Shown: positions 8,596 through 42,899 of the stretch, piece by piece
Layout of the letters: every line of letters starts with the position of its first letter
Position numbering within the stretch: the stretch's first letter is position 1
DNA from: Patescibacteria group bacterium
GTDB lineage: Bacteria > Patescibacteriota > Minisyncoccia > UBA6257 > 1-14-0-10-40-38
NCBI GenBank assembly: GCA_038064975.1
Contig: JBBTRX010000001.1
Location: 336 to 64,335 of the forward strand
DNA: 64,000 nt
Direction of reading: 5' to 3'
The notes under the pieces: model-generated
The model's database searches: none
The model's input: the letters and a program-made list of their open reading frames with translations, nothing else
Told to the model about the DNA's origin: nothing
Program-made: the position numbers and the translations under genes

Positions 8596-8632
8596 CTCCT
8601 CAAGTATACCCGAGACTTCTAGCGGAACAAAT

Positions 8633-10186
8633 TTAGCGGCGACTCCAATACGGTAAACAGTTTTCGCTTCCACATTTTAAGAAATACATAGTATTTTGAC
8701 CACCAACCGTTTGAAGAAACGTTACGACGGGAAGACCGTCCACACCAAGACCAATGGATGCATATTTACCGCCCCCTTCTCCGCCAAGAGATGCAGGTAA
8801 ATCTAATGCCAAAGGCGTGCCATGACTGATGGTACATTCTTTATTGCCACATTTTCGGACATAAAGTGCTTGAGCCGTCTTACTTTGATACGCAATTAAC
8901 GGCAAGCCATCAATGCTGGTAGTAATGGAAGAATATTTACCAACATCGCCTTCTGAGAGTGAACTGACTGTAGAAACTGTAACCAAACTTGGAGTGCAAT
9001 TAATATCTTTACAAGAAAGAAGCATTAAACGTCCATTAGTAGCATGATAAACAGTAATAAGAGGAAACCCATCAGAACCAACAGTAACGGAAGCAAACTC
9101 TCCAACGACCTCATTGAGAGCGTTATTAATAAGCTTATTAGTTACACTACTTGTGCATTCCATATTGGTACATTTTTTAAAATAAATACCTTGTGCGCCA
9201 GCAAGAACGTCATAATAGACGAAATAAGCCGTAAAGAGTAAACCATCCGAACCTAAAGCGAGCTGAGCTCTTGTTCCATTTTTTTCATCTCCCGATGGAA
9301 AACCAGAACCAAGAGTACTAATTGTTACTGGATTAGGAGGATTCTCACAACTTATATTTTCACAAAGAATAAGATAAACTCCTGCAGATGTAGTGCCTCT
9401 TCTGTAAGAGATCGCAGGAAATCCATTAGATTGCGTAGTAATTGAAGTCGGAAGATCTAGGACATTTATAGTATCGAGATCTCTATATGTAGAATTTTTA
9501 CACTCATAATCATAACAAGCATAAAAAATCAATTTAGGACCTGACGCAATACCCGCAATTATGGGATATCCATTTTGACCAATACTAATAGAAACATTTC
9601 CTATTCCCTGCGCAAGATCAAGATCGCTTATAGAAACCGGATTACTACAATCAGGGATAGTACAATGCCCGACTTTAATTCTACCGTCATCAACATAGAC
9701 GAATACCGGCATACCATCCCTACCTATAGTAAGCGCTAAATATCCTCCGGAAATAACTTCTGTTGGGTTGGGTAGACGATAATAAAAATTTTGCGTCGGA
9801 ATCTTAGTATTCGGGAAGAATCGCTGAGATATACCCTCAAGAGTAATACCACCATTAACGCTTAACTTAGCAATAGCAGTAGGTCTTCCAATCGCTACGT
9901 TCCCTTGAGTTAAAAGATTGTTACCGTTAGCAGTGATTCCGATATAAGACGAGCCAATACTTAAAGCTCCTCCAACAGAAAGCGCGCTCTGCGGTTCTTC
10001 TGAATCCGAAAGTGCAATACCTACTTTCGTAGGATCAGTTACACCAGGTTTTAGCCCACCAACTCCAACTCCCGGAAAATTATTGGGATTAACCCACGCA
10101 AAAACTCCGCCCGCAAACAGAATCGCCGCAGACAAAAAAGCGATGGCGAAGATGAATTTGGTATTATGATGCATAAATTTTTCCAT
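8633..10186 (-). CDS. surface repeat protein, paralog 1
   Basis: N-terminal TM/signal, then a Gly-rich beta-helix-like region (SVGGALSIGSSYIGITANGNN). About eight ~40-aa repeats follow, of the form [ST]x[IL]GxDGxPxI.Y...KCxxxxC. C-terminus is CLPYWSRR. Confidence 0.6.
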   Translation of the reverse strand: MEKFMHHNTKFIFAIAFLSAAILFAGGVFAWVNPNNFPGVGVGGLKPGVTDPTKVGIALSDSEEPQSALSVGGALSIGSSYIGITANGNNLLTQGNVAIGRPTAIAKLSVNGGITLEGISQRFFPNTKIPTQNFYYRLPNPTEVISGGYLALTIGRDGMPVFVYVDDGRIKVGHCTIPDCSNPVSISDLDLAQGIGNVSISIGQNGYPIIAGIASGPKLIFYACYDYECKNSTYRDLDTINVLDLPTSITTQSNGFPAISYRRGTTSAGVYLILCENISCENPPNPVTISTLGSGFPSGDEKNGTRAQLALGSDGLLFTAYFVYYDVLAGAQGIYFKKCTNMECTSSVTNKLINNALNEVVGEFASVTVGSDGFPLITVYHATNGRLMLLSCKDINCTPSLVTVSTVSSLSEGDVGKYSSITTSIDGLPLIAYQSKTAQALYVRKCGNKECTISHGTPLALDLPASLGGEGGGKYASIGLGVDGLPVVTFLQTVGGQNTMYFLKCGSENCLPYWSRR

Positions 10187-10190
10187 AGCA

Positions 10191-11720
10191 TTATCGTGTC
10201 CAATACGGCAGACACCTATCGCTTCCGCATGTTACGAGCTTAAAACCCCCATCTATACGATATGCGACTATCGGTATGCCATGTGATCCAATAGCGACTG
10301 TTGTTCCAAAATTAATAGCATTACTTTGCTCAAGTTCATAGAGTGTATTTTTACCCGAAGAACAATCAGAGCTTGAGCACACGGCAATACGAGAGGCAAG
10401 CATGGGGTTGAGAGACCCTGCTGTTGAGCTTGCAATATAACTTATGACTGGAAAACCATTTATTCCCAATGTGATAGCATTCCACTCCCCACTATTCCAC
10501 GTCGGAGACATGGTGAAACTATCTACCACATTAGATGTAGACGCCGTACAACTAATATCAAGACATTTTAAGACGCGCAACTCACTCAGCCCTCCCACAC
10601 GCACACCGGTGGAAATAACTGGTAATCCATCCAATCCGATTGTGAGCGAATTATGGTATCCGGAGCCTTTTTCACTTGAACCCATATCTTTAGTTAAAAA
10701 ACTAAGACAATCATAATTGGTATTACACTTTGCAAGACGAAGTCTCTGCGAACCGGTAGTGCTCGCGTAATACGACATAACAGGAAGGCCATCATACCCG
10801 ATACCCATAGAGACTGTACCAAATATGACACCTCCCGGAGGGATATCAAATCCCTCCTGAATAGTGCTTGTTAGACCAAGATCGCTACAACCCGCATCAT
10901 TACATTTTCGAAATACAAGTTTATTGGGTGATCCGGCCCGATAATACGCAAGCACGGGATTGCCCGTCTCCGGACTGATACGTATAGAAGGTGAATATCC
11001 TTCGGGATCTACGATACTTTTAATAGATGTCATGCAAGCGATATCGGAACATTTTGCAACTTTTAATTGAGTATTAAGAGTGATTGGATCAACAAAATTA
11101 TAAGCGAATACAGGGCGATTATCTGAACCAATAACAAGAGAATTATCAGCGCTCGTAAGCGCTCCACTTGCTTCTACCAATGAATCAGTATAAGTAGTAC
11201 ACCGTACGTCGTTGCATTTAACAATACGGAACGCCCCTATTCCCGCCTCTTCGGAGGCATAGTATGCCATTACCGGAAAACCATCCGAACCAATAGTCAT
11301 AGAGATATATCTTCCACCAGTAACATTCAAAAGACTTTCCCCTTCGTTTATTGGAAAGCGAGCGTCCCATGATCCGAATTGGATAGTTCTTCCAATGGCA
11401 ATTGTTCCGTTAAGATTTAATGATCCCTTAATAACAGAAGCTCCCTCCCCTATGCCAGCCTTTCCCTCAACATACATTGTTCCTGGAGGAGCAAAAGTCG
11501 TTGTAGCATAGGACCCTATACTCGCACCTCCCAGGACCGTAAGAGAACTTCCCGAAAGAGAAGTATTAATCCCAATATTGCCTCCTTGCGATCGGAGCAC
11601 TCCTTGTTCTGTAGGCGGGTCTTGAGTTGGACTAATAAAACCAAACGTAAGTCCAGCAAGAAGAATAGCAAAAAAAGCTGCCGCGGAAGTTATATTAATG
11701 AGAATACGATGTTCGTGCAT
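10191..11720 (-). CDS. surface repeat protein, paralog 2
   Basis: Same architecture as paralog 1, C-terminus CLPYWTR. The 88-bp repeat lies directly upstream of its start. Confidence 0.6.
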   Translation of the reverse strand: MHEHRILINITSAAAFFAILLAGLTFGFISPTQDPPTEQGVLRSQGGNIGINTSLSGSSLTVLGGASIGSYATTTFAPPGTMYVEGKAGIGEGASVIKGSLNLNGTIAIGRTIQFGSWDARFPINEGESLLNVTGGRYISMTIGSDGFPVMAYYASEEAGIGAFRIVKCNDVRCTTYTDSLVEASGALTSADNSLVIGSDNRPVFAYNFVDPITLNTQLKVAKCSDIACMTSIKSIVDPEGYSPSIRISPETGNPVLAYYRAGSPNKLVFRKCNDAGCSDLGLTSTIQEGFDIPPGGVIFGTVSMGIGYDGLPVMSYYASTTGSQRLRLAKCNTNYDCLSFLTKDMGSSEKGSGYHNSLTIGLDGLPVISTGVRVGGLSELRVLKCLDISCTASTSNVVDSFTMSPTWNSGEWNAITLGINGFPVISYIASSTAGSLNPMLASRIAVCSSSDCSSGKNTLYELEQSNAINFGTTVAIGSHGIPIVAYRIDGGFKLVTCGSDRCLPYWTR

Positions 11721-11721
11721 A

Positions 11722-11809
11722 GGAATAGAATCTAGAAAATAGAATCTAGAAAATAGAAATAAGAAGTGGAAAATAATATTTGTATCATTTGTATATTAGT
11801 ATCGATACA
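11722..11809. repeat. 88-bp repeat, copy 1 (inverted relative to 16277..16364)
   Basis: The reverse complement is 87/88 identical to 16277..16364. It contains tandem tagaatctagaaaa units and ends 1 nt before the paralog-2 start codon. Confidence 0.8.
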
Positions 11810-11831
11810 CAATTTCTTTGTTTATTGCACA

Positions 11832-13439
11832 TTATCTCCGTGTCCAATACGGAACACAAAACTCGCTTCCGCATTGGAAGCTTGTCAGCAATCCGGACCC
11901 GGAAATAGAATTAATAAAACCGACAAGAGGGAGTCCGTGTGAGCCCACAAATACCGCCGCGCCGGGAGCCGCATAAAATTCAGAGGGGGAGAGACCGAAA
12001 TAATCTGCTCCAGTAAGAACCAATCTTGTTTCCTTAAATTCATCGTTACCAGATACATCTTTACCACAAAACTCGTTACCACATCGTATAAAATAAAGAT
12101 TATTATTATCATTTCCTGGATCCGTTGTGGAATAAATCAAGATGGGCGTGCCATGAACACTCGTCGCCGCACGAATTGAAGTAACGCTTACTCCAGAAGA
12201 AAATGTTTTTATCACATCTGTTGATGGTGTAGAACATGAAATATCATCACATTTTGTAACACGTAAAGTCGCATTACCTCCCTCTGACGTATGAAAAATG
12301 AGAGGAGTACCATCACGAGAAATAACAATAGCGTTTAATTTGCCAACAACCGTAATGCCGCTGGATGGCCAATCTAAAGGATCATCTAATTTAACAGGGT
12401 TAGTGGATGCCGAACAATTTGTTGTTCTACATCTGATAAATTTCAATGTATTTCCATCATCTCCATCTTGATACGCAATAATCGGAAAAACATTGATACC
12501 GAGCGTAAATGCAAGATAATCAAACGCACCAGAGATTAACGTAAGATCTTCTTTGCTCGCACAAGCAGGATCATAGCAATGAATAACCTTAATCGGGTTA
12601 CCCGAACCAAGTCGGATTGAAATTATGACAGGATTACCATCCCCTCCAATAATCATATCTGCTGATTGAGTATTAGTATCTACAACAATAGAAGAGTTTG
12701 TAGCACAATTTAAAGAAGTACAAGCCAAGAAACGAGTCGCCGTACTAAAGAGTGATTTATTTTTAATAAGCACTATAGGATAATCACCCGGACCCGGCTT
12801 TGCGCTTAATATTTCAGGTAATTTATTATTTAGCCCCATAAGGGTATATGCGATGACAGGAGAGTCAGCAAGAGAGCAGTCTATTTTGCGACATCGTAGT
12901 GCATATACGTTCTTATCTCCCTCATTAACACCCTGCTCAGCAAGTGTGTAAAAAAAGATTGGCGTTCCATCACGATTAACGGTAAACGCAGATGTTTGGA
13001 CATCGCCAGCAATAAGAAAAGAAGTTACTACATGAGGGAGGGGAACTTTGGCATTTCTATCATAACGCTGTTGAATTCCATCTATCGTAATACCCCCACC
13101 GGAAAGACTAAGGGGTGCTGTTATAGTACTCGTCCCGATACCAAGTGCGACTTCCACATTTAATCCATTTGCTACCGCAGAAAGACTGGCTCCCTGCGAC
13201 GTACTCGCGATAGAAAGAGATCCGTTAATACTCAAAGCATTTAGCGCATTTTCCGTATTAATACCGATAAAGCCATTTGATGCTCTATGAATAGTTCCTG
13301 ATGTATTAGGAGGGCCACCGCCGGGACCATCCCATCCCCTCACAACGCCTGCGATAAGAAGGCCAAGAAAAAGAAAAGAAAAAAGACCAATGAGAATTGA
13401 ATGCCTTTTTTCTGAAAAATTAAATTTAGTATTTTCCAT
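11832..13439 (-). CDS. surface repeat protein, paralog 3
   Basis: Same architecture as paralogs 1 and 2, C-terminus CVPYWTRR. Confidence 0.6.
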   Translation of the reverse strand: MENTKFNFSEKRHSILIGLFSFLFLGLLIAGVVRGWDGPGGGPPNTSGTIHRASNGFIGINTENALNALSINGSLSIASTSQGASLSAVANGLNVEVALGIGTSTITAPLSLSGGGITIDGIQQRYDRNAKVPLPHVVTSFLIAGDVQTSAFTVNRDGTPIFFYTLAEQGVNEGDKNVYALRCRKIDCSLADSPVIAYTLMGLNNKLPEILSAKPGPGDYPIVLIKNKSLFSTATRFLACTSLNCATNSSIVVDTNTQSADMIIGGDGNPVIISIRLGSGNPIKVIHCYDPACASKEDLTLISGAFDYLAFTLGINVFPIIAYQDGDDGNTLKFIRCRTTNCSASTNPVKLDDPLDWPSSGITVVGKLNAIVISRDGTPLIFHTSEGGNATLRVTKCDDISCSTPSTDVIKTFSSGVSVTSIRAATSVHGTPILIYSTTDPGNDNNNLYFIRCGNEFCGKDVSGNDEFKETRLVLTGADYFGLSPSEFYAAPGAAVFVGSHGLPLVGFINSISGSGLLTSFQCGSEFCVPYWTRR

Positions 13440-13530
13440 TGCGCTTGGCTTTGCTGTGCTTTAAACGTTTCTTCAATTATAATTGTCTTTACAGGAGTTA
13501 CCTAAGTTTTGTGTGGATAAGATAAGCGCT

Positions 13531-16976: not shown

Positions 16977-17082
16977 GGATACGGGGTAGAGGGTATGGCC
17001 ACTAGCCAATAGAATTGAGATAAAAAAGAACGCCTCCGAAAGGCGACTCTTTTTTATTTTCACTCCTCAACTGATCAACTCG

Positions 17083-17403
17083 TTAACTGTTTTTGATTCC
17101 CGTAATTTCTACTTCAGTAAACGGTTGGCGATGGCCTTTCTTTTTCTTATATCTCGTCTTGGAGTGATACTTAAATACTATCTTTTTCTCATCCCGGCCT
17201 TGCATAAGGACTTTTCCAGCAACCGTAGCGCCTTTTACGCGCGGATCACCTATAACAACGTCATCACCGTTTACGACGAGTAAAACCGAATCAAAAGAGA
17301 CCTGAGATCCAGTTTCAGCTTCAAGCTTTTCAATTTTTATTTTTGAGCCGGATTCAACGCGATATTGCTTACCTCCCGTCTCAATGACTGCGAATGTTTT
17401 CAT
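17083..17403 (-). CDS. rplU: 50S ribosomal protein L21
   Basis: MKTFAVIETGGKQYRV... is classic L21. Confidence 0.9.
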   Translation of the reverse strand: MKTFAVIETGGKQYRVESGSKIKIEKLEAETGSQVSFDSVLLVVNGDDVVIGDPRVKGATVAGKVLMQGRDEKKIVFKYHSKTRYKKKKGHRQPFTEVEITGIKNS

Positions 17404-23630: not shown

Positions 23631-23712
23631 TGCGGTTACGGGTTTTTGAATTTTTGTATATTGTAAGGAATAAACTCTTCAACTCATCAACTGATCAACT
23701 CATTAACTATTC

Positions 23713-24144
23713 TCATATCCCTAGTTCGCCCATTTTTTCAGCAATCTCATCAGAAGCAGATTCCGTCTTCGCCTTGTATTGTTTCCATGAATCGGCATCC
23801 CAAATTTCAAAACGATTAAATACGCCCGTAACAATTGCTTCTTTTTTTAAATCTGCATATTTGCGTAAATGATCCGGTATCAAGATTCTTCCCTGCCCAT
23901 CAATATCAGCTTCAGCTGCACCGGAAAGCATAAGTCGAGAAAATGCACGAGAATTCGCCTGAGCAATCGGAAGCGCGACCAACTTTTGTGCGAGCGTCTC
24001 CCATTCGTTTCTGGAAAATACAAAAAGGCAGTGATCCAATCCCCGAGTTACGATCGCACCGCCTGCGAGATCCTTGCGGAACTTTGCCGGAACTGCGATG
24101 CGTCCCTTTACATCAAAATTGTGTGCGTATTCTCCGATGAACAT
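23713..24144 (-). CDS. mraZ: transcriptional regulator MraZ
   Basis: MFIGEYAHNFDVKGRIAVPAKFR..., a duplicated MraZ domain. Confidence 0.9.
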   Translation of the reverse strand: MFIGEYAHNFDVKGRIAVPAKFRKDLAGGAIVTRGLDHCLFVFSRNEWETLAQKLVALPIAQANSRAFSRLMLSGAAEADIDGQGRILIPDHLRKYADLKKEAIVTGVFNRFEIWDADSWKQYKAKTESASDEIAEKMGELGI

Positions 24145-28527: not shown

Positions 28528-28699
28528 GACTGTTCTCCTTTAAGGAACGAGTAGAATCGCTTCTCATAACCAGCGTCATGGCGGTTACGTTCAGAAGCCC
28601 ATGTTTAACGTACTCCATTAATTATACTCCTATTTCTATATTCTGTCAAATACAATAAATAATCGATATACAATTCAAACTCTTCAACTCACCAACTCA

Positions 28700-29395
28700 T
28701 TAACCCCTCAACTCCCCTTGCTTCCGCCATTCCTCAATCTTCTTATGATTCCCCAACAAAAGCACCTTCGGGACACGCCATGAAGATGACTTAGAACTTT
28801 TAACTGACAACTTATAACTTTTCTTATTTTTTAGATTTGGTATAAAAATCTCCGGCTTCGTATAGACCGGATACGAACCTTTTATTTCCTCTAACGATTC
28901 ATGTTTCCCAAGCACTCCCGGAATAAAACGCGAAACTGCATCCACAAGAATCATTGCCGGCAATTCCCCACCGGAGAGAACGTAATCCCCTAACGATATT
29001 TCTTCGTCTGCAACATGCTCCGCAACGCGCTCGTCTACACCTTCGTACCTTCCACAAATTAAAATAAGCTGGTCGTATTTTGCAAGACGTTTTGCAATAC
29101 TCGCGTCAAATTTTTTACCCCGCGTAGAAAATAAAATTACGCGGGTTTTTTGTTTTTTGTTTTTAGTTTTTAGTTTCTGCACTATTTTGTAGATCGGCTC
29201 TACCTTAAACACCATCCCTGGACCGCCTCCATATGGAGAATCATCTACAGTTTTATGTTTATCGATCGTAACGTCCCGCAAGTTATGAGCTTTAATCGTT
29301 ATGAGTTTCTTTTCTTGTGCTCGTCTCAAAATAGACTCATTAAAATATGAGTCAAAGATCTGCGGAAAAATAGTTATGAGATCAAACTTCAGCAT
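28700..29395 (-). CDS. trmD: tRNA (guanine37-N1)-methyltransferase
   Basis: LITIFPQIF...SPYGGGPGMV SPOUT motifs. Start trimmed to MLKFDL; the upstream extension overlaps a terminator hairpin. Confidence 0.9.
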   Translation of the reverse strand: MLKFDLITIFPQIFDSYFNESILRRAQEKKLITIKAHNLRDVTIDKHKTVDDSPYGGGPGMVFKVEPIYKIVQKLKTKNKKQKTRVILFSTRGKKFDASIAKRLAKYDQLILICGRYEGVDERVAEHVADEEISLGDYVLSGGELPAMILVDAVSRFIPGVLGKHESLEEIKGSYPVYTKPEIFIPNLKNKKSYKLSVKSSKSSSWRVPKVLLLGNHKKIEEWRKQGELRG

Positions 29396-38510: not shown

Positions 38511-38606
38511 CGACAAGTAAAATAGGGACAGGTGACATGTCCCGTGTCCCATGCTCCATGTCCCAAAACTCACCAACTCATCAACTGACTAACTGATCAA
38601 CTGTAT

Positions 38607-40355
38607 ATGAATTCCAGCAACGCAAACCTAGAGTCTATTAGACATTCTCTTGCTCATATTCTCGCCTCTGCGGTACAGAAAAAGTTCCCCGGAGTAAAAC
38701 TCGGCATCGGTCCGGCAATCCAGGACGGGTTTTATTATGATTTTAAATTTAAAAATAATCCCGGACCGGAAATCCTTGCGGAATTAGAGTCTGAGATGCG
38801 TGCGATTATCAAACAGAATCTCCTCTTCTCCGGAACTAAAATTACTCCGCAGAAAGCTCGCAATCTTTTTAAGGGCCAGCCGTTCAAGCTTGAACTCATT
38901 AAAGATTTCACAAAAGATAAAAAACAACTCACTTCGTACGCCACGGGAACAATTTTTATGGATCTCTGTCGCGGAGGGCATGTTAAGAATACCGGCATGA
39001 TAAATCCGGATGCTTTTAAACTCTCACACCTCGCCGGAGCATATTGGCGCGGAGACGAAAAGAAACCGCAACTCCTCCGCATTTATGGATTTGCGTTTGA
39101 AACTAAAGAAGATTTGGATAAACACCTCGCACTGCTTGAAGAAGCAAAAAGACGCGATCATAAAAAACTAGGAAAAGATCTGGATCTCTTTACGTTTTCC
39201 GACCTTGTGGGCGCAGGGCTCCCCCTTTGGACTCCGAAAGGCACAGTTGTACGGGACATGTTGGATTCATTTGTTTGGGAACTCCGAAAATCTCGCGGGT
39301 ACGATCGCGTGGATATTCCTCATATCACGAAGAAAGATCTCTACGAAACGAGCGGTCATTGGGATAAATTTAAAGAAGAACTATTCCATATCACCACACG
39401 CGAAGGGCATCTTTTGGTTTTAAAGCCAATGAACTGCCCGCATCACACGCAGATTTACGCACGTAAGCAGTGGAGCTATCGGGAACTACCTCAACGCTAT
39501 GCCTCTACAACGAAAGTATATCGCGACGAACAGACCGGAGAACTCGCGGGACTTGCTCGCGTACGCGCGATTACACAAGACGACGCGCATGTCTTTTGCA
39601 GAAAAAACCAGATTGGAGAAGAAATGGGACGCGTTGCCGATATTATCAATGAATTCTATCGCGTGTTTGGTTTTTCACTTTCCGTCCGCCTTTCGTTTCA
39701 TGACCCGAAAGAAAAATCAAAATACCTCGGCACCCCAAAGCTTTGGAAGGAAGCAGAAGCAGAACTCCGTAAGCTCATAGCAGAAAAAGGATACGAAGCA
39801 ACGGAAGCAAAAGGAGAAGCAGCGTTTTACGGTCCTAAGATTGATTTCATCGCCAAGGACTCGCTGGGACGCGAGTGGCAAGTCGCGACAATCCAGTTGG
39901 ATATGATCCAGCCAGAACGGTTTAATCTCACCTGCATCGGGGAAGACGGAAAACCGGAAGGCATTTTTATGATTCACGCCGCAATCATGGGATCTCTGGA
40001 ACGATTCATCTCTGTCCTTATTGAGCACACTGCCGGAGCATTTCCCGTCTGGCTCGCACCGACACAGGTACGCATTCTCCCTATTGGAGAAAAATTCTCC
40101 GAATACGCAAAGAGTGTGGAGCAGAAATTTATGAGCGCAGACATCCGTACGGAAATGAGCGAAAATGATTCTTTGGGAAAACGTATTAGAGAATCTGAAA
40201 TGCAAAAAATCCCCTATACGATTATCGTGGGAGAAAAGGAACAAACAGCCGGAACCATAAGCGTTCGTCGCTACGGCAAGGGAGATGAAGGAATCATCCA
40301 ACTAGAACAATTTCTGGAAAGAATCCAAAACGAAGTCAAAACAAAATCCGCCTAA
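38607..40355 (+). CDS. thrS: threonyl-tRNA synthetase (lacking the N-terminal TGS domain)
   Basis: Class II motifs and the second additional domain (HSLAHIL). Confidence 0.9.
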   Translation: MNSSNANLESIRHSLAHILASAVQKKFPGVKLGIGPAIQDGFYYDFKFKNNPGPEILAELESEMRAIIKQNLLFSGTKITPQKARNLFKGQPFKLELIKDFTKDKKQLTSYATGTIFMDLCRGGHVKNTGMINPDAFKLSHLAGAYWRGDEKKPQLLRIYGFAFETKEDLDKHLALLEEAKRRDHKKLGKDLDLFTFSDLVGAGLPLWTPKGTVVRDMLDSFVWELRKSRGYDRVDIPHITKKDLYETSGHWDKFKEELFHITTREGHLLVLKPMNCPHHTQIYARKQWSYRELPQRYASTTKVYRDEQTGELAGLARVRAITQDDAHVFCRKNQIGEEMGRVADIINEFYRVFGFSLSVRLSFHDPKEKSKYLGTPKLWKEAEAELRKLIAEKGYEATEAKGEAAFYGPKIDFIAKDSLGREWQVATIQLDMIQPERFNLTCIGEDGKPEGIFMIHAAIMGSLERFISVLIEHTAGAFPVWLAPTQVRILPIGEKFSEYAKSVEQKFMSADIRTEMSENDSLGKRIRESEMQKIPYTIIVGEKEQTAGTISVRRYGKGDEGIIQLEQFLERIQNEVKTKSA

Positions 40356-40385: not shown

Positions 40386-41381
40386 TTAATAATTCTGTAA
40401 CGAAAACTGCTCAATCTCTTGTTTTAATTTTTGAGTATTACCGTGATTCATGAGACCAAGATACGACAGCACAACTTCATTTTTACCTTTAGTATTTTCA
40501 AGATTTCTAAACATGCGTTTCTTCGTGGCAGATCGAAGCACTCTATGATCAGGGAAGTGTATCCATCCCAGAAAATCAATGCCTGATGCGAACGTCTGCA
40601 AAGAAACTTTATCGGGATGAAGCGTTAGTTTCAATTCCTCCAAAAGAAACGCATGTACGCTTCGGAGCGTGGTTTCAAGCCATGCTTTGTCCGCCGAGAG
40701 AATAACGAAATCATCCGCATAGCGAATATAGTATTTTGCCTTAATCTTGTGTTTCATAAACTGATCAAAAATGTTCATATAAATATTCACGAATAATTGC
40801 GAGGTGAGATTGCCAAGAGGAAGTCCGCGCCCCCGCTCCCCCATGTAGAAACTTCCCACGATTGCCGAGATAAGTCGCAGTATATTTTTTTCTGGAATGT
40901 GCACAAGCATAATCCGCATAAGAATTTCCTGATCGATAGACGCGAAGAATTTACGTATATCACATTTCAGTACCCATGCCGTTTGCATATGATTTTTGGA
41001 AACAATATGCGCATATGACCGGAATTTAGCAATCGCTTTATGCGTTCCTTTTCTCTTCCGACACGAATATGAATCAGCAATAAATCTCCGGTCAAAGAAT
41101 GGATAAAGTACGCGATAGATCGCGCGGTGAAGCAGGCGGTCGCGCACGCTCGCTTTATGGATATTTCTTGGCTTCGGATCAGAAATATTAAACGCCTCAT
41201 ATTCCGAGTGGCGATATATATGTGCGGCAAGATCGCCGTGCAACGCAAAAATATTACTCATAAGATTCAACTCAAATTTCTGCACATCCATGCGGTTACG
41301 CTTGCCGACGATAAATTCCTGCCAGGCGGCGAGGAGATTTTCAACGGAAATGATATGCTCGTAAGTATGGATAAATTTCAT
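40386..41381 (-). CDS. diversity-generating retroelement (DGR) reverse transcriptase
   Basis: RT motifs FASIDQEIL, LPLGNLTSQLFVNIYM (the IGxxxSQ-type signature diagnostic of DGR RTs, as opposed to QGxxxSP of group II introns), YADD, and GIDFLGW. The N-terminus is the conserved DGR-RT type (...ISVENLLAAWQEFIVGKRNRMDVQKFE...). Start trimmed to MKFIHTYE; the track's longer ORF begins at a GTG inside a poly-C tract. Confidence 0.85.
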   Translation of the reverse strand: MKFIHTYEHIISVENLLAAWQEFIVGKRNRMDVQKFELNLMSNIFALHGDLAAHIYRHSEYEAFNISDPKPRNIHKASVRDRLLHRAIYRVLYPFFDRRFIADSYSCRKRKGTHKAIAKFRSYAHIVSKNHMQTAWVLKCDIRKFFASIDQEILMRIMLVHIPEKNILRLISAIVGSFYMGERGRGLPLGNLTSQLFVNIYMNIFDQFMKHKIKAKYYIRYADDFVILSADKAWLETTLRSVHAFLLEELKLTLHPDKVSLQTFASGIDFLGWIHFPDHRVLRSATKKRMFRNLENTKGKNEVVLSYLGLMNHGNTQKLKQEIEQFSLQNY

Positions 41382-41394
41382 AATACAAGAGATC

Positions 41395-41772
41395 TTGGAA
41401 GTCCCCCCCCCCACGGCTTTACTGCCTGTTTTACAGCAAGTGAAAAGTGCTTACCTTCTCTGGTATGAATACTATCAGATACTTCCGAAACTCCATCGGC
41501 ATACGCTTGGTGAGCGGATTGATAGGTTATTTATAGAGATTATTGAAAACATATCATTCGCGAGTTTTCTCTCACGCGAAGAAAAACAACCCTACGTACG
41601 TGTAGCCATAAGGAAAGTTGATGCGTTAAAAATTCTTCTCATGGTACTTTGGGAAACAAAATCACTTGATAACAAAAAATATATTGCGGTTTCTCTAAAA
41701 ATAGAGGTGATAGGAAAAATGCTTGGAGGCTGGAATGGCCACCTTATAAAACAAAACTCTCCCAAGAAATAG
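41395..41772 (+). CDS. avd: Avd-like accessory variability determinant (four-helix-bundle, IVS-protein-like)
   Basis: 125-aa helical protein ending ...LKIEVIGKMLGGW, typical of the four-helix-bundle/Avd family. It lies between the RT and TR but diverges from the RT. Codons 3-6 span a C10 homopolymer. Confidence 0.55.
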   Translation: MEVPPPTALLPVLQQVKSAYLLWYEYYQILPKLHRHTLGERIDRLFIEIIENISFASFLSREEKQPYVRVAIRKVDALKILLMVLWETKSLDNKKYIAVSLKIEVIGKMLGGWNGHLIKQNSPKK

Positions 41773-41792
41773 GGAGAGAAGTGAAGAGAGTT

Positions 41793-41915
41793 GCACGCAG
41801 AGCCGCAGGATTCTGATCGTCCCAGTCGTTGTCGAGCCAGTTGTAGTTCCAGTTCCACCTGCCTTCGTTCCAGTACAGGTACCGGACATTCAGGTTGCCG
41901 TTCGAGTTGCGGTTG
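41793..41915 (-). repeat. DGR template repeat (TR)
   Basis: ~122 bp, ~88% identical to 42313..42434. Every difference is at a position where this copy has T on the plus strand, that is A on the coding (minus) strand. Confidence 0.8.
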
Positions 41916-42308
41916 CGTATGGAGCGCCTTCAGAGCCACTGCCCATTGTCCGCAAAATTTACGGATGCAGAGCTGTATCGTATCCGGCATCGAAAATGCC
42001 TTAGCGCCCCACACCAAGTTGTTTCACTTTTTTAAAAGCTGCGGAGACCACTCCATCCCTAACCGTGATCAAAGATGCTCTGGGCACATCCGTTGCTTGG
42101 CCTCGGTAGCGGGAAACCGTGATCGCCCGCGTATGCACCACTGCCATATTCATGATATCAAAAATTAAAAGACCCCGTGTCCCCAAGCTTTGGTAGCTTG
42201 AGGAACACGGGGCCGAGTGGAGGATCCCCCGAACGTTCTGATGGGAACGAGCGGGCAAAGTACTAAGGATCTAAAGAGTCCCTAGGTTCAGAGATCCAAG
42301 CTCATCAA

Positions 42309-42899
42309 CTAGGCACGCAGAGCCGCAGGATCCTGACCGTCCCAGCCGTCGTCGAGCCAGCGGCAGCTCCAGTCCCACCTGCCTCCGTCCCAGTACAGGT
42401 ACCGGACACCCAGGTTGCCGTTCGAGTGGCGGTAGATGGTTCCCCAGAAGAAGGTGTAGCGAGTGCGACCCTTGTCGTCCTGCTTCCAGTCTTCCGGGAT
42501 GAGGTACGGATGCGCGAGGAGGTAATCAAGGACGCAGGCATTCAATACCGGCTGCCCTTGAAGTTGCTTGCGAAGTTCCGTCCCTCGGATCGTCTTGCCT
42601 TCCTTCTGTGGGTCAGAGAGGAAGAGATTCACCTTCGCAGGATCCCATTTCCACTGACCACCCTTCTGGTGATCTTCGATCTTCCAGCCATCAGGGATCA
42701 TCGGGTCCACGTCACAGTCCACGACATGGTCCACAATCCTGATTTCGGCATTGCCGAGCTGGACTTGGAGCAACTGTTTGAAGAGATCGGGCCGTTCTGC
42801 GAGAGCGTTCATGAGCTCCGGAGTGTAACCCTGCCCTTCTGCGACGAGACAGACCTTGTGAGCCAACCCTACGATGGAAAACGCGGACTTCGCCGGCAT
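42309..42899 (-). CDS. DGR target (variable) protein, probable C-type-lectin-fold; VR occupies the last ~40 codons
   Basis: 196 aa. C-terminus is ...YTFFWGTIYRHSNGNLGVRYLYWDGGRWDWSCRWLDDGWDGQDPAALRA, a Trp/Gly-rich pattern typical of CLec-fold variable proteins. GC-rich relative to the flanks. Confidence 0.75.
   Translation of the reverse strand: MPAKSAFSIVGLAHKVCLVAEGQGYTPELMNALAERPDLFKQLLQVQLGNAEIRIVDHVVDCDVDPMIPDGWKIEDHQKGGQWKWDPAKVNLFLSDPQKEGKTIRGTELRKQLQGQPVLNACVLDYLLAHPYLIPEDWKQDDKGRTRYTFFWGTIYRHSNGNLGVRYLYWDGGRWDWSCRWLDDGWDGQDPAALRA
42313..42434 (-). repeat. DGR variable repeat (VR) at the 3' end of the target gene
   Basis: See the TR entry. There are 14-15 substitutions and all are at TR-adenine positions. 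The GC-rich 3' boundary ctgcggctctgcgtgc is shared with TR (IMH-like). Confidence 0.8.

What the first reader, a model, noticed from the sequence alone, without database searches (positions are those of the whole stretch)
8633..13439. Three tandem paralogous surface repeat proteins sharing a conserved C-terminal C[LV]PYW[ST]RR motif: candidate novel adhesin family
Three consecutive minus-strand genes (517, 509 and 535 aa) share the same architecture. Each has an N-terminal signal/anchor helix and a Gly/Ser/Ile-rich region resembling beta-helix or YadA-head-like repeats (for example SVGGALSIGSSYIGITANGNN). About eight ~40-aa repeats follow, of the form [ST]x[IL]GxDGxP[VI]I.Y..(8-12)..[LV]..[KR]C.[DN]..C, each with a Cys pair; the arrangement looks propeller-like with disulfides. 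All three end with an almost identical terminal blade: CLPYWSRR, CLPYWTR, CVPYWTRR. I do not recognise this as a named family. Tandem expansion of secreted repeat proteins is what one expects of attachment factors in an episymbiont.
Basis: seen in the sequence. Interest (0 to 1): 0.65.

Follow-up and report, generated by a model that had tools for sequence, protein, structure and literature searches.

The report
Disulfide-stapled seven-bladed surface propeller proteins
Three neighbouring genes of a Patescibacteria genome encode exported proteins whose heads are seven-bladed beta-propellers with one cysteine pair per blade and a conserved basic tail; they belong to a very large, widespread protein family that no database names and that most likely serves as a binding head on cell surfaces.

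Summary
W1 (8633-10186), W2 (10191-11720) and W3 (11832-13439) are full-length paralogues (25-28% identity). Each has an N-terminal hydrophobic helix, a ~100-aa Gly-rich stalk, seven repeats each ending in C-x4-C, and the terminus C-[LV]-P-Y-W-[ST]-R(-R). AlphaFold2 models the repeats as a seven-bladed beta-propeller; the nearest solved folds are Photorhabdus PLL/PHL lectins (fold only, 10-13% identity). Pfam, NCBIfam, PHROGs and PDB sequence searches give no family. Yet a profile finds 5,501 cluster representatives (E<=1e-30) across at least seven bacterial phyla and one archaeon. The tail (Φ-P-Y-[FWL]-R-R-R) recurs family-wide in 83 of 102 terminal propellers, but it is a C-terminal cap, not a velcro strand; coevolution suggests the N-terminal strand closes the ring. 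The same propeller sits on collagen stalks, a lipoprotein, tail-fibre modules and a type IV pilin, which argues for a displayed binding head. The triplet is syntenic in a related genome and evolves fast. Adhesion is inferred, not shown, and the family is not episymbiont-specific.

The parts
8633..10186 (-). W1 gene, 517 aa. It is NCBI MEK7611736.1, annotated 'hypothetical protein', from a Patescibacteria MAG.
   Evidence: ORF; exact-sequence cluster look-up; family HMM E 1e-107.
10191..11720 (-). W2 gene, 509 aa. Only 4 nt separate it from W1, so the two are likely co-transcribed.
   Evidence: E 1e-108. Best hit to the middle gene of the syntenic triplet in L001 (31% identity, 6e-70).
11832..13439 (-). 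W3 gene, 535 aa. It is the most divergent paralogue and lies 111 nt upstream of W2.
   Evidence: E 9e-86. It has seven C-x4-C pairs, but only five repeats reach the canonical repeat HMM.
10097..10156 (-). W1 N-terminal hydrophobic helix (aa ~11-30), a Sec signal peptide or signal anchor. Equivalent segments occur in W2 and W3.
   Evidence: AF2 helix at residues 2-27. Sequence FIFAIAFLSAAILFAGGVFA followed by W-x-x-P. The alignment of seven CPR N-termini shows h-region, then [WF]xxPxxxPP.
9797..10096 (-). W1 Gly-rich stalk (aa ~31-130) with two '[IV]G[IV]..(P)...L.[VI].G' motifs. Coordinates are approximate.
   Evidence: Low AF2 confidence (pLDDT 38-67). Conserved among CPR-type relatives. A profile of this module hits small proteins, one carrying Peptidase_S74. 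P0036 gives a weak tail-fibre PHROG hit.
8657..9796 (-). W1 seven-bladed propeller (aa ~131-510): 28 strands and seven C-x4-C pairs, at C175/180, 224/229, 275/280, 339/344, 392/397, 446/451 and 505/510.
   Evidence: AF2 DSSP and pLDDT, repeat HMM, Foldseek search.
10212..11369 (-). W2 propeller domain (aa ~118-503; approximate start).
   Evidence: Seven repeat-HMM hits over aa 136-503.
11856..13037 (-). W3 propeller domain (aa ~135-528; approximate start).
   Evidence: Seven C-x4-C pairs, the first at aa 183 and the last at aa 523-528. HMM repeats over aa 249-528.
8636..8656 (-). W1 C-terminal tail LPYWSRR (aa 511-517).
   Evidence: AF2 confidence: pLDDT below 50 for residues 514-517.
10194..10211 (-). 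W2 C-terminal tail LPYWTR (aa 504-509), one residue shorter than in W1 and W3.
11835..11855 (-). W3 C-terminal tail VPYWTRR (aa 529-535).
   Evidence: The 3' ends of the three genes are also detected as a 49-nt DNA repeat family of 67-71% identity (family D3).

Best explanation
W1, W2 and W3 are three anciently duplicated, probably co-transcribed genes. Each encodes an exported protein with four parts: an N-terminal Sec signal or anchor helix, a ~100-residue Gly-rich stalk, a C-terminal seven-bladed beta-propeller, and a short conserved tail.

How the propeller is built. Each ~50-aa sequence repeat supplies three strands of one blade, then a C-x4-C hairpin loop (most probably a disulfide staple), and then the outer strand of that same blade. 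The strand ahead of the first repeat therefore completes the seventh blade, giving an N-terminal velcro closure. The last C-x4-C loop and the seven-residue tail (Φ-P-Y-[FW]-x-R-R) form a specialised C-terminal cap. In it the aromatic residues pack on the closure, and the basic end is less ordered.

What it most likely does. The proteins belong to a very large, unnamed family found across many prokaryotic phyla. In that family the same propeller sits at the far end of very different display devices. I therefore think it is a multivalent, lectin-like binding head exposed on the cell surface. In this Patescibacterium, three fast-evolving paralogues would provide three specificities for attachment to a host cell or another surface.

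Shown: the gene structure, paralogy, repeat and Cys architecture, predicted fold, family size and spread, conservation of the tail, synteny, and the domain fusions. Inferred: the disulfides, the blade topology, export, and the binding and adhesion function.
For: Paralogy and architecture.

Fold: AF2 of W1 gives 28 strands with pLDDT mostly >85 over residues 130-513. AF2 of the canonical P0022 gives pLDDT 87 and pTM 0.84. The top 22 Foldseek PDB hits are all seven-bladed PLL/PHL lectins (E 7e-13 to 5e-11, TM 0.70-0.78 normalised to the target); CV39L lectin is also hit.

Cys pair: both Cys are present in 1878 of 1878 aligned repeats. C45-C50 is among the strongest DCA couplings. Both Cys are lost together in four proteins.

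Topology: couplings 43-5' and 46-3' link strand 4 to the next repeat's strand 1, and none of the 45 strongest couplings links strands 1 and 2.

Export: hydrophobic N-termini in W1-W3. Typical signal peptides or a lipobox in relatives (sequences).

Family size and spread: 43,687 / 12,730 / 5,501 cluster representatives at E<=1e-3 / 1e-10 / 1e-30. GTDB hits fall in Chloroflexota, Actinomycetota, Nitrospirota, Acidobacteriota, Binatota, Myxococcales, Ca. Peribacteria and a Thermoplasmata archaeon.

Display-type fusions: collagen triple helix in 11 of 46 members, Laminin_G_3, CBM96 and Peptidase_S74; tail-fibre PHROGs in P0029; a lipoprotein with collagen repeats in cultured Ca. Lucifugimonas marina; and N_methyl prepilin motif plus dockerin/EF-hand plus propeller ending CLPYWTRR in L090/L094.

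Precedent: the pilin-borne heptabladed propeller PilX2 is needed for host binding in Saccharibacterium TM7x (PMC11623550).

Conserved triplet and fast evolution: L001 has CysS-CorA-[526][491][500]-RmuC with collinear best hits at 26-31% identity, while GroEL, GroES and DnaB are 77-78% and RmuC 68% identical. The variable and inserted parts are the outer strand plus the D-A and B-C loops.

Tail: 83 of 102 terminal propellers have exactly 7 residues after the last Cys, with Pro 66, Tyr 66 and final Arg 83 of 87. The last loop is specialised, with F or L at position 49 in 77 of 91 tailed proteins against 2 of 13 tail-less ones.
Against: There is no experimental datum for any member. Fold similarity to lectins is at 10-13% identity, and beta-propellers serve many functions; glycoside hydrolase, lyase and sialidase propellers are also hit. 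The PLL-type sugar site uses conserved Trp residues (PMC5584973), which this repeat lacks: its consensus has no Trp, and the only Trp in W1's propeller region is in the tail.

The Cys-Cys distances, the position of the tail and the blade topology therefore rest on DSSP strings, pLDDT and coevolution only. Many DCA couplings are same-position couplings between neighbouring repeats and may be phylogenetic.

The triplet sits among housekeeping genes, with no pilus, secretion or glycan genes nearby. No neighbour is conserved across lineages. How the protein stays attached to the cell if the signal peptide is cleaved is unknown. The family is abundant in free-living bacteria, so a link to episymbiosis is not implied.
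Confidence: 0.6

Rival explanations
1. The propeller is an enzyme, a glycoside hydrolase, polysaccharide lyase or sialidase-like catalyst that acts on envelope or environmental glycans, rather than a binding module.
For: Foldseek also returns GH145 BT3686 (E 1e-10), L-rhamnose-alpha-1,4-D-glucuronate lyase and many sialidases. Some relatives carry CBM96 or LamG modules, which are typical of carbohydrate-active enzymes.
Against: The repeats are highly symmetric. The same residues are conserved in every blade (D9, G15, S19, G26, P28, Y32, L40, C45, C50), and most look structural (turn Gly, Pro and Asp, and salt-bridge pairs D9-K41 and D25-H44). No blade-specific catalytic constellation is visible. 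The best-scoring fold neighbours are lectins. Sialidases are six-bladed and match with lower TM (0.32-0.56).
Confidence: 0.12
2. The proteins are structural envelope components, a surface-layer or spacer lattice, in which the propeller mediates self-assembly rather than recognition of foreign ligands.
For: The triplet is at a fixed position in a core housekeeping region in two genomes. The family is common in free-living lineages. Tandem sets of two or three co-oriented paralogues recur, which would suit hetero-oligomers. The stalk is poorly modelled as a monomer.
Against: Orthologues have diverged to 26-31% identity while neighbouring genes are 53-78% identical. That is more typical of proteins under diversifying pressure than of lattice components, although S-layer proteins can also evolve fast. 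Fusion to a pilin N-terminus, tail-fibre modules and collagen stalks points to a distal head on a fibre.
Confidence: 0.15
3. The C-terminal Φ-P-Y-[FW]-R-R-R motif is a sorting or processing signal, recognised by a dedicated enzyme or by envelope polymers for cell-surface retention, rather than a structural cap.
For: It is strictly terminal and of fixed length: 7 residues in 83 of 102 proteins, with the last residue Arg in 83 of 87. The RRR end is the least confidently modelled part. The propeller domains are net acidic and the tail is basic. Propellers fold without it in multi-domain relatives. W1-W3 have no other obvious anchor if their signal peptides are cleaved.
Against: There is no hydrophobic segment after the motif, unlike LPXTG, PEP-CTERM and similar signals. 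The motif occurs in groups I would expect, from general knowledge of those groups, to have single-membrane envelopes (Actinomycetota, Chloroflexota, CPR), in groups I would expect to have an outer membrane (Nitrospirota, Acidobacteriota, Myxococcales) and in an archaeon; this argues against one lineage-specific sorting machine. No gene co-occurs across lineages within about 6 kb. The Φ-P-Y part is ordered in the better model (I389-P390 lie in a block of pLDDT 94, and Y391 forms a beta-bridge). It also co-varies with a specialised last loop (N47, F49), as expected for a structural cap.
Confidence: 0.15
4. The H-C-x-[DN]-x-x-C elements bind metal ions as zinc-knuckle-like sites, one per blade, instead of forming disulfides.
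For: His precedes the first Cys in 49% of repeats and D/N is at +2 in 87%. Pfam DUF1936 (a 34-position model) weakly matches exactly this segment in 9 of 46 members. Several host lineages are, as far as I know, anaerobes, in which extracytoplasmic disulfide formation is less assured.
Against: His44 is replaced by Lys, Arg or Gln in about a third of repeats, and in W1-W3 it is His in only 2 of 21 blades (sequences). Position 44 co-varies with D25, like a salt bridge. Two Cys plus an optional His is an incomplete site. The proteins carry export signals. The DUF1936 matches have no individually significant stretch.
Confidence: 0.08

Closest known systems
PLL/PHL family of seven-bladed beta-propeller lectins (Photorhabdus; PDB 5C9L, 5MXE, 8Q83 and others) and CV39L of Chromobacterium
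   Same: Single-domain seven-bladed propeller built from seven ~50-aa four-stranded repeats of high internal symmetry. These are the best structural matches to the W1 model (E 7e-13, TM 0.70-0.78 over about 360-400 columns). Such lectins bind sugars multivalently between blades (PMC5584973), which is the working model proposed here.
   Different: Only 10-13% identity in the structural alignment. Profile searches of the PDB sequences find nothing. The PLL/PHL sugar sites depend on conserved Trp residues, and their only disulfide is intermolecular. The present repeat has no conserved Trp and has one C-x4-C pair in every blade, plus a conserved basic C-terminal tail and an N-terminal export signal and stalk.
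Pilus-borne propeller adhesins: PilX2 of Saccharibacterium TM7x and PilY1 of Pseudomonas
   Same: A heptabladed propeller at the C-terminal end of a surface-displayed protein. PilX2 is required for efficient host binding in a Patescibacterium (PMC11623550). One relative of W1-W3 (L090/L094) has a genuine prepilin N-methylation motif in front of the same propeller and tail.
   Different: W1-W3 have no prepilin motif and are not in a pilus locus. PilX2's propeller is described as made of RCC1 repeats, whereas no RCC1 or any other Pfam repeat matches here. Nothing is reported for PilX2 or PilY1 about a per-blade Cys pair or a PY[FW]RRR tail.
Collagen-stalked surface proteins and fibres (Scl1/Scl2 and Lcl adhesins; phage-type tail fibres with a Peptidase_S74 chaperone)
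   Same: Many family members have the same layout of signal peptide, collagen-like or fibre-like stalk and globular C-terminal head. The W1-W3 stalk shares '[IV]GIG..P...L.V.G' motifs with small S74-containing proteins.
   Different: In W1-W3 there is no collagen repeat and no S74 domain. The resemblance concerns architecture only. The head domain is a different fold from those of Scl/Lcl or of known tail-fibre tips. No relative was found in the IMG/VR viral contigs.
Pfam DUF1936 (PF09151)
   Same: It is the only curated model that touches the repeat. It aligns to the 'LKVAHCxxxxC' segment and passes its gathering score in some canonical members.
   Different: It is a 34-position model that covers about 15 of the 50 repeat positions. 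Scores arise only by summing sub-threshold stretches (0 significant stretches). Only 9 of 46 members are hit, and W1-W3 are not. It does not describe a propeller, the seven-fold repeat or the tail.

Membership tests
PLL/PHL seven-bladed propeller lectins | Seven-bladed beta-propeller fold of ~50-aa four-stranded repeats | tested here: met
   The AF2 models show 28 strands in seven sets. The top 22 Foldseek PDB hits are PLL/PHL chains, with TM 0.70-0.78.
PLL/PHL seven-bladed propeller lectins | Detectable sequence homology to PLL/PHL | tested here: not met
   Profile searches of all PDB sequences with A1 and A2 return nothing except a chance plasmepsin match at E 1.4. Structural alignments have 10-13% identity.
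PLL/PHL seven-bladed propeller lectins | Conserved Trp-containing sugar-binding motif between blades (PMC5584973) | tested here: not met
   No column of the repeat profile has Trp among its five commonest residues. W1's propeller plus tail contains a single Trp, which is the one in the tail.
PLL/PHL seven-bladed propeller lectins | Binds fucose or O-methylated sugars | not testable with these tools
   Requires glycan arrays or ITC on purified protein.
Pfam DUF1936 (PF09151) | Sequence score above the gathering threshold, with a real domain match | tested here: not met
   W1-W3 give no hit at E<=1. In relatives, 9 of 46 exceed 25 bits, but with 0 individually significant stretches and only profile positions 14-30 aligned.
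Named beta-propeller repeat families (NHL, YVTN, PQQ, Kelch, WD40, FG-GAP, BNR, RCC1, TECPR and so on) | Match to the Pfam or NCBIfam repeat model | tested here: not met
   No such family at E<=1 for W1-W3, nor at E<=0.1 for 46 family members. By eye the repeat pattern resembles NHL-type repeats, but that is a recollection, not a test. A profile-profile search against Pfam was not available.
Type IV pilin-borne propeller adhesins (PilY1/PilX2-like) | N-terminal prepilin (N-methylation) motif, or encoded in a pilus locus | tested here: not met
   W1-W3 have no N_methyl hit, and their neighbours are RmuC, GroES/EL, CysS, DnaB and RecR. The relative in L090/L094 does meet this feature (N_methyl 27 bits against a cutoff of 21.2).
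Type IV pilin-borne propeller adhesins (PilY1/PilX2-like) | C-terminal seven-bladed propeller head | tested here: met
C-terminal sorting signals (LPXTG, PEP-CTERM, GlyGly-CTERM, PGF-CTERM and the like) | Short motif followed by a hydrophobic transmembrane segment and a basic tail | tested here: not met
   The proteins end 6-7 residues after the last Cys, with no hydrophobic segment. No cognate enzyme gene recurs nearby.
Trimeric autotransporter / YadA-like head | YadA head or stalk repeats and a C-terminal membrane anchor | tested here: not met
   No Pfam match in the Gly-rich region. The C-terminus is a propeller, not an anchor.
DGR variable proteins | Variable repeat matching the template repeat of the retroelement in the same window | tested here: not met
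   The TR (41793-41913) has only a 9-nt chance match in 8601-13500. The VR lies in a different gene (42309-42899).
Unnamed family defined here (C-x4-C seven-blade propeller with basic tail) | Seven ~50-aa repeats matching the repeat HMM, each ending in a Cys pair | tested here: met
   W1 has 7 of 7 and W2 7 of 7 repeats by HMM. W3 has 5 by HMM and 7 Cys pairs. Family-profile E values are 1e-86 to 1e-108.
Unnamed family defined here (C-x4-C seven-blade propeller with basic tail) | Protein ends 7 residues after the last Cys with Φ-P-[YF]-[FWL]-x-R-R | tested here: met
   W1 ends LPYWSRR, W3 ends VPYWTRR, and W2 ends LPYWTR (one residue short). Family logo.

The most novel reading that the evidence does not exclude
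The three collinear paralogues, retained since before the two genomes diverged and with stalks of matching length, might assemble into one heterotrimeric fibre carrying three different propeller heads, in the way the three tandem C1q genes do. The invariant Φ-P-Y-[FW]-R-R-R end would then be a previously unrecognised, envelope-independent terminal signal that clasps the ring closure and tethers the acidic head to anionic surface polymers. More broadly, this unnamed family would be a general prokaryotic surface-recognition module, used by CPR bacteria, including on pilins, to choose hosts.
Probability: 0.15. Interest if true: 0.7.

Novelty: new variant of a known kind. Interest (0 to 1): 0.5.

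Why it matters
Surface proteins are thought to be how ultrasmall Patescibacteria find and hold their hosts. Very few such proteins have any annotation, and the only tested example I found is a pilin-borne propeller, PilX2 of TM7x. This finding does three things:
- **It defines the family concretely.** The definition comprises a repeat HMM, a per-blade Cys pair and a terminal cap motif. The family has thousands of members in at least seven bacterial phyla and one archaeon, and Pfam, NCBIfam and the PDB do not describe it.
- **It links the family to display devices.** These are collagen stalks, a lipoprotein, tail-fibre modules and a type IV pilin, and they make a binding role testable.
- **It offers an experimental route.** One member lies in a cultured organism, Ca. 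Lucifugimonas marina JH545.

Naming the family would annotate many 'hypothetical proteins'. The conserved basic tail and the recurrent triplets are specific, unexplained features worth testing.

Tried and rejected
**Family libraries**
- Pfam, NCBIfam and PHROGs scans of W1-W3 gave nothing.
- I rejected the Pfam DUF1936 match in relatives as an assignment.
- PDB sequence-profile searches gave only a chance plasmepsin hit at E 1.4.

**Searches that failed or were unavailable**
I replaced these with a canonical-subfamily alignment for GTDB and a degenerate DNA pattern for the CPR terminus. In the latter, 4 of 8 loci were chance matches.

**Negative results**
- *Viruses:* BFVD gave only generic propellers, and IMG/VR gave no relative. 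I dropped a phage origin.
- *Neighbours:* clustering the flanking ORFs of 82 loci found only shadow ORFs of the family genes and lineage-specific synteny. No partner or processing enzyme emerged.
- *Regulatory signals:* the promoter and terminator scan of the locus was uninformative, with counts below the shuffle means.
- *Window repeats:* the only large repeat pair belongs to an unrelated DGR, so I rejected DGR targeting of the propeller genes.
- *Literature:* searches for PYFRRR, PYWTRR and DUF1936 returned no papers.

**Unreliable or rejected readings**
- A regex count of a possible N-terminal lead-in motif co-occurring with the tail was unreliable, so I report it only as an impression.
- The 'C-terminal velcro strand' was rejected.

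Full report
**1. What is in the sequence**

Three co-oriented minus-strand ORFs occupy 8633-10186 (W1, 517 aa), 10191-11720 (W2, 509 aa) and 11832-13439 (W3, 535 aa). The gaps between them are 4 nt and 111 nt. They lie between cysS/dnaB/recR on one side and rmuC/groES/groEL on the other.

The three align over their full length at 25-28% identity, with E values of 2e-26 to 6e-33. About 80 columns are invariant, including all 14 cysteines. Each ends in C-[LV]-P-Y-W-[ST]-R(-R). A family profile finds no other copy in the window. W1 is identical to NCBI MEK7611736.1, 'MAG: hypothetical protein [Patescibacteria group bacterium]'.

Each protein has exactly seven Cys pairs spaced 49-70 residues apart; in W2 one of them is C-x5-C. 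A 50-position repeat HMM built from relatives finds seven repeats in W1 and W2 and five clear ones in W3. Its consensus is [50 protein letters not shown].

**2. Fold**

AlphaFold2 with a 46-sequence alignment models W1 residues ~130-513 as 28 beta-strands in seven sets of four, mostly with pLDDT above 85. It also gives an N-terminal helix (residues 2-27) and a poorly defined stalk (residues 29-128). A compact canonical relative, P0022, gives pLDDT 87 and pTM 0.84 with the same 28 strands.

In the Foldseek search of the PDB, the top 22 hits are all chains of the Photorhabdus PLL/PHL seven-bladed propeller lectins (E 7e-13 to 5e-11, TM 0.70-0.78 normalised to the target, 10-13% identity). GH145, a rhamnose-glucuronate lyase, CV39L lectin and sialidases follow. 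The resemblance to PLL/PHL is in the fold only. Those lectins use conserved Trp residues in inter-blade sugar sites and have only an intermolecular disulfide (PMC5584973). The present repeat has no conserved Trp and has a Cys pair in each blade.

**3. Not a named family, but a very large one**

Pfam, NCBIfam and PHROGs give nothing for W1-W3. PDB sequence profiles give nothing credible. Literature searches for the terminal motifs give nothing.

Among 46 members, the only Pfam model touching the repeat is DUF1936. It is a 34-position model that aligns to 'LKVAHCxxxxC' in 9 members, and only through summed sub-threshold stretches. I do not regard this as an assignment.

In contrast, a profile of the family finds 43,687, 12,730 and 5,501 representatives of 50%-identity clusters at E<=1e-3, 1e-10 and 1e-30. 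These include giant proteins with several propellers. The weakest tier may include hits to the N-terminal domains that are part of the profile.

A scan of one genome per GTDB species with two canonical peptide patterns confirmed 96 relatives. They come from:
- Chloroflexota: Anaerolineae, Dehalococcoidia and SAR202, including the cultured Ca. Lucifugimonas marina
- Actinomycetota, Nitrospirota, Acidobacteriota, Binatota, Myxococcales and Ca. Peribacteria
- a Thermoplasmata archaeon

Nearly all are MAGs, which probably explains the lack of curation.

**4. The Cys pair and blade topology**

Both cysteines are present in all 1878 repeats that align across those columns. Four proteins lack the last pair, and in each of them both cysteines are replaced together. 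C45-C50 is among the strongest couplings in a mean-field DCA of 1282 consecutive repeat pairs. Members carry signal peptides or a lipobox, so I infer a disulfide that staples a five-residue loop. The metal-site alternative is weakened because His44 is often Lys or Arg, and because it co-varies with Asp25 like a salt bridge.

The same DCA shows couplings between strand 4 and the first strand of the next repeat (43-5', 46-3'). None of the 45 strongest couplings links strands 1 and 2 of one repeat. A structural blade would therefore be strands 2-3-4 plus the following repeat's strand 1. The strand that precedes repeat 1 (W1 residues 134-138, pLDDT ~82) would complete blade 7. That is an N-terminal, not a C-terminal, velcro closure. 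This is an inference, because I could not inspect coordinates.

**5. The C-terminal motif**

The representative search was not selected for its termini. In it, 102 proteins end within 12 residues of a C-x4-C, and 83 of these have exactly seven residues after the second Cys. The logo from 87 tails is H-C-[SAG]-N-x-F-C-[VILT]-P-Y-[FWL]-R-R-R, with Pro 66, Tyr 66 and final Arg 83 of 87. There are lineage dialects:
- PYFRRR in Actinomycetota and Chloroflexota
- PNVRNR in the SAR202/Dehalococcoidia group
- PYHRR in Nitrospira
- PYW[ST]RR in CPR

The GTDB sample was partly selected through this motif.

The tail is not a blade strand, for three reasons:
- Propellers inside multi-domain proteins, and 13 terminal ones, stop at the last Cys.
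- Neither model predicts a strand after the last Cys.
- In P0022 the I-P residues lie in a block of pLDDT 94 and Tyr makes an isolated bridge, but the last five residues average pLDDT 60. In W1 residues 514-517 are below 50.

The last C-x4-C loop is specialised together with the tail. Position 49 is F or L in 77 of 91 tailed proteins, against 2 of 13 tail-less ones and about 4% Phe in repeats overall; Asn47 occurs in 69 of 91. I read this as a composite aromatic cap on the ring closure with an exposed basic end. The propeller domains are net acidic, from -6 to -30.

A role as a sorting signal cannot be excluded, but several things argue against it. There is no hydrophobic segment after the motif. 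No gene co-occurs across lineages. The motif occurs in lineages that, to my knowledge, have very different cell envelopes, and in an archaeon.

**6. What the propeller is attached to**

In W1-W3 and other CPR-type members, the N-terminus is a hydrophobic helix followed by [WF]-x-x-P-x-x-x-P-P. Then come two '[IV]G[IV]...L.[VI].G' motifs and a conserved [RK]-Φ-P lead-in to the propeller. A profile of this module hits small proteins of 86-230 aa, one of which carries a Peptidase_S74 domain.

Elsewhere the same propeller follows:
- collagen triple-helix repeats, in 11 of 46 members
- a lipoprotein signal plus collagen repeats in Ca. Lucifugimonas marina
- Laminin_G_3 or CBM96 modules

In one relative it precedes a tail-fibre/S74 module.

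A DNA pattern for the CPR-type terminus recovered two metagenomic CPR-type proteins (L090/L094). Each has a bona fide prepilin N-methylation motif (27 bits; cutoff 21.2), a dockerin/EF-hand module, and then the propeller ending CLPYWTRR. These architectures are those of displayed, usually fibre-borne, distal heads. The nearest experimental precedent is PilX2 of Saccharibacterium TM7x, a minor pilin with a heptabladed (RCC1-type) propeller. Its deletion roughly halves host binding (PMC11623550).

**7. The tandem array**

A related Patescibacteria genome (GCA_964366105.1, locus L001) has the same arrangement: RecR-DnaB-CysS-CorA-[526][491][500]-RmuC-...-GroES-GroEL. Best hits are collinear: W3~526, W2~491 and W1~500. 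The W3 assignment is only marginally better than the alternatives. These pairs are only 26-31% identical. By comparison, GroEL, GroES and DnaB are 77-78%, RmuC 68%, and RecR and CysS 53-54% identical. The triplication therefore predates the split of these genomes. All three copies were kept, and they evolve much faster than their neighbours.

The parts that cannot be aligned to the canonical repeat, and that carry the extra length, are the outer strand and the D-A and B-C loops. Two other CPR-type loci also carry tandem sets (L085, L086). Arrays of two or three co-oriented paralogues recur in Vicinamibacteria, Gaiellaceae, Anaerolineae, other Actinomycetes and the Thermoplasmata archaeon. Arrays are therefore a family trait and not a feature of episymbionts.

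**8. Most likely mechanism, and how sure I am**

I consider the structural and family-level statements well supported. The function is inferred: an exported, stalk-borne, multivalent binding head. Its variable loops would set specificity and its per-blade disulfides would give extracellular robustness. Three paralogues would broaden the range of ligands or form a mixed fibre.

I give about 0.6 to the 'displayed binding head' reading as a whole, and less to host attachment specifically. The rivals are an enzyme (0.12), a structural lattice (0.15), the tail as a sorting signal (0.15, not exclusive of the main reading) and metal sites (0.08).

**9. Novelty and verdict**

The fold is a known kind. 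The sequence family, its per-blade C-x4-C staple and its conserved basic cap are not described in any library or paper I could search. I rate it a new variant of a known kind. Interest is moderate (0.5). It is a large dark family with concrete, testable features and a plausible link to CPR host recognition, but there is no functional evidence and no unusual mechanism is yet demonstrated.

Noticed in passing
window 40386-42899: A complete diversity-generating retroelement. It has a reverse transcriptase (40386-41414, minus strand; RVT_1 at E 5e-24), a template repeat at 41793-41913, and a variable repeat at 42313-42433 covering the 3' end of a 196-aa ORF (42309-42899, minus strand). All 14 mismatches between the repeats fall at adenines of the template copy (12 A-to-G, 2 A-to-C). 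It does not target the propeller genes.
   Followed up: yes
window 17061-17114, 23673-23734, 28678-28739, 38575-38628: An intergenic repeat made of 'AACTCAT/CAACTGAT'-like units (family D1; 6 overlapping copies at 4 sites, 61-70% identity). One copy lies immediately upstream of, and overlaps, the start of the threonyl-tRNA synthetase gene (38607). It could be a regulatory or promoter-associated element.
   Followed up: no
L090:347-2641 (-) and L094:4096-6246 (-): CPR-type relatives in which the same propeller and CLPYWTRR terminus follow a type IV prepilin N-methylation motif and a dockerin/EF-hand Ca-binding module. They are candidate pilus-tip adhesins.
   Followed up: partly
proteins P0046, P0054, P0056, P0080, P0087, P0089, P0090, P0095 (and P0047, P0050, P0088, P0093, P0117): Multi-propeller relatives lack the PY[FW]RRR tail. 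Instead they end in other recurrent termini, '[FY]LP[VLMI][VI].[RK]' or '..[IF][IV]AT..[YF]'. These may be separate, undescribed C-terminal signals.
   Followed up: no
L085:2890-5292 (+) and L086:142-1572 (+): In other CPR-type arrays, one member is a double propeller (800 aa, 13 C-x4-C, ending CVPYWGRR). Another gene has the same N-terminal signal/stalk module (AWINPSQSPPNEGG...) but an unrelated C-terminal part. This suggests a modular stalk with exchangeable heads.
   Followed up: partly
window 8633-8673: The listed rmuC ORF (GTG start at 8673) overlaps the 3' end of W1 by 41 nt. The L001 orthologue is 33 residues shorter (347 against 380 aa), so the true rmuC start is probably further downstream.
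   Followed up: no
L013:3337-7062: Two tandem family members in a Thermoplasmata archaeon MAG end in FGIPYVRYR. One has lost only the second Cys of the last pair and the other has lost both. This is the only archaeal occurrence seen, so possible horizontal transfer or a binning error should be checked.
   Followed up: no
region preceding blade 1 in tail-bearing family members (e.g. W1 aa 121-133): A lead-in of the form [NR]-[RK]-x-x-P-x-x-N or R-P-G-F precedes the first blade in most tail-bearing proteins. It appeared absent in tail-less ones of the '...CGTRTCQ' type. This fits the N- and C-termini meeting at the ring closure, but I judged it by eye, and my regex count was unreliable.
   Followed up: partly
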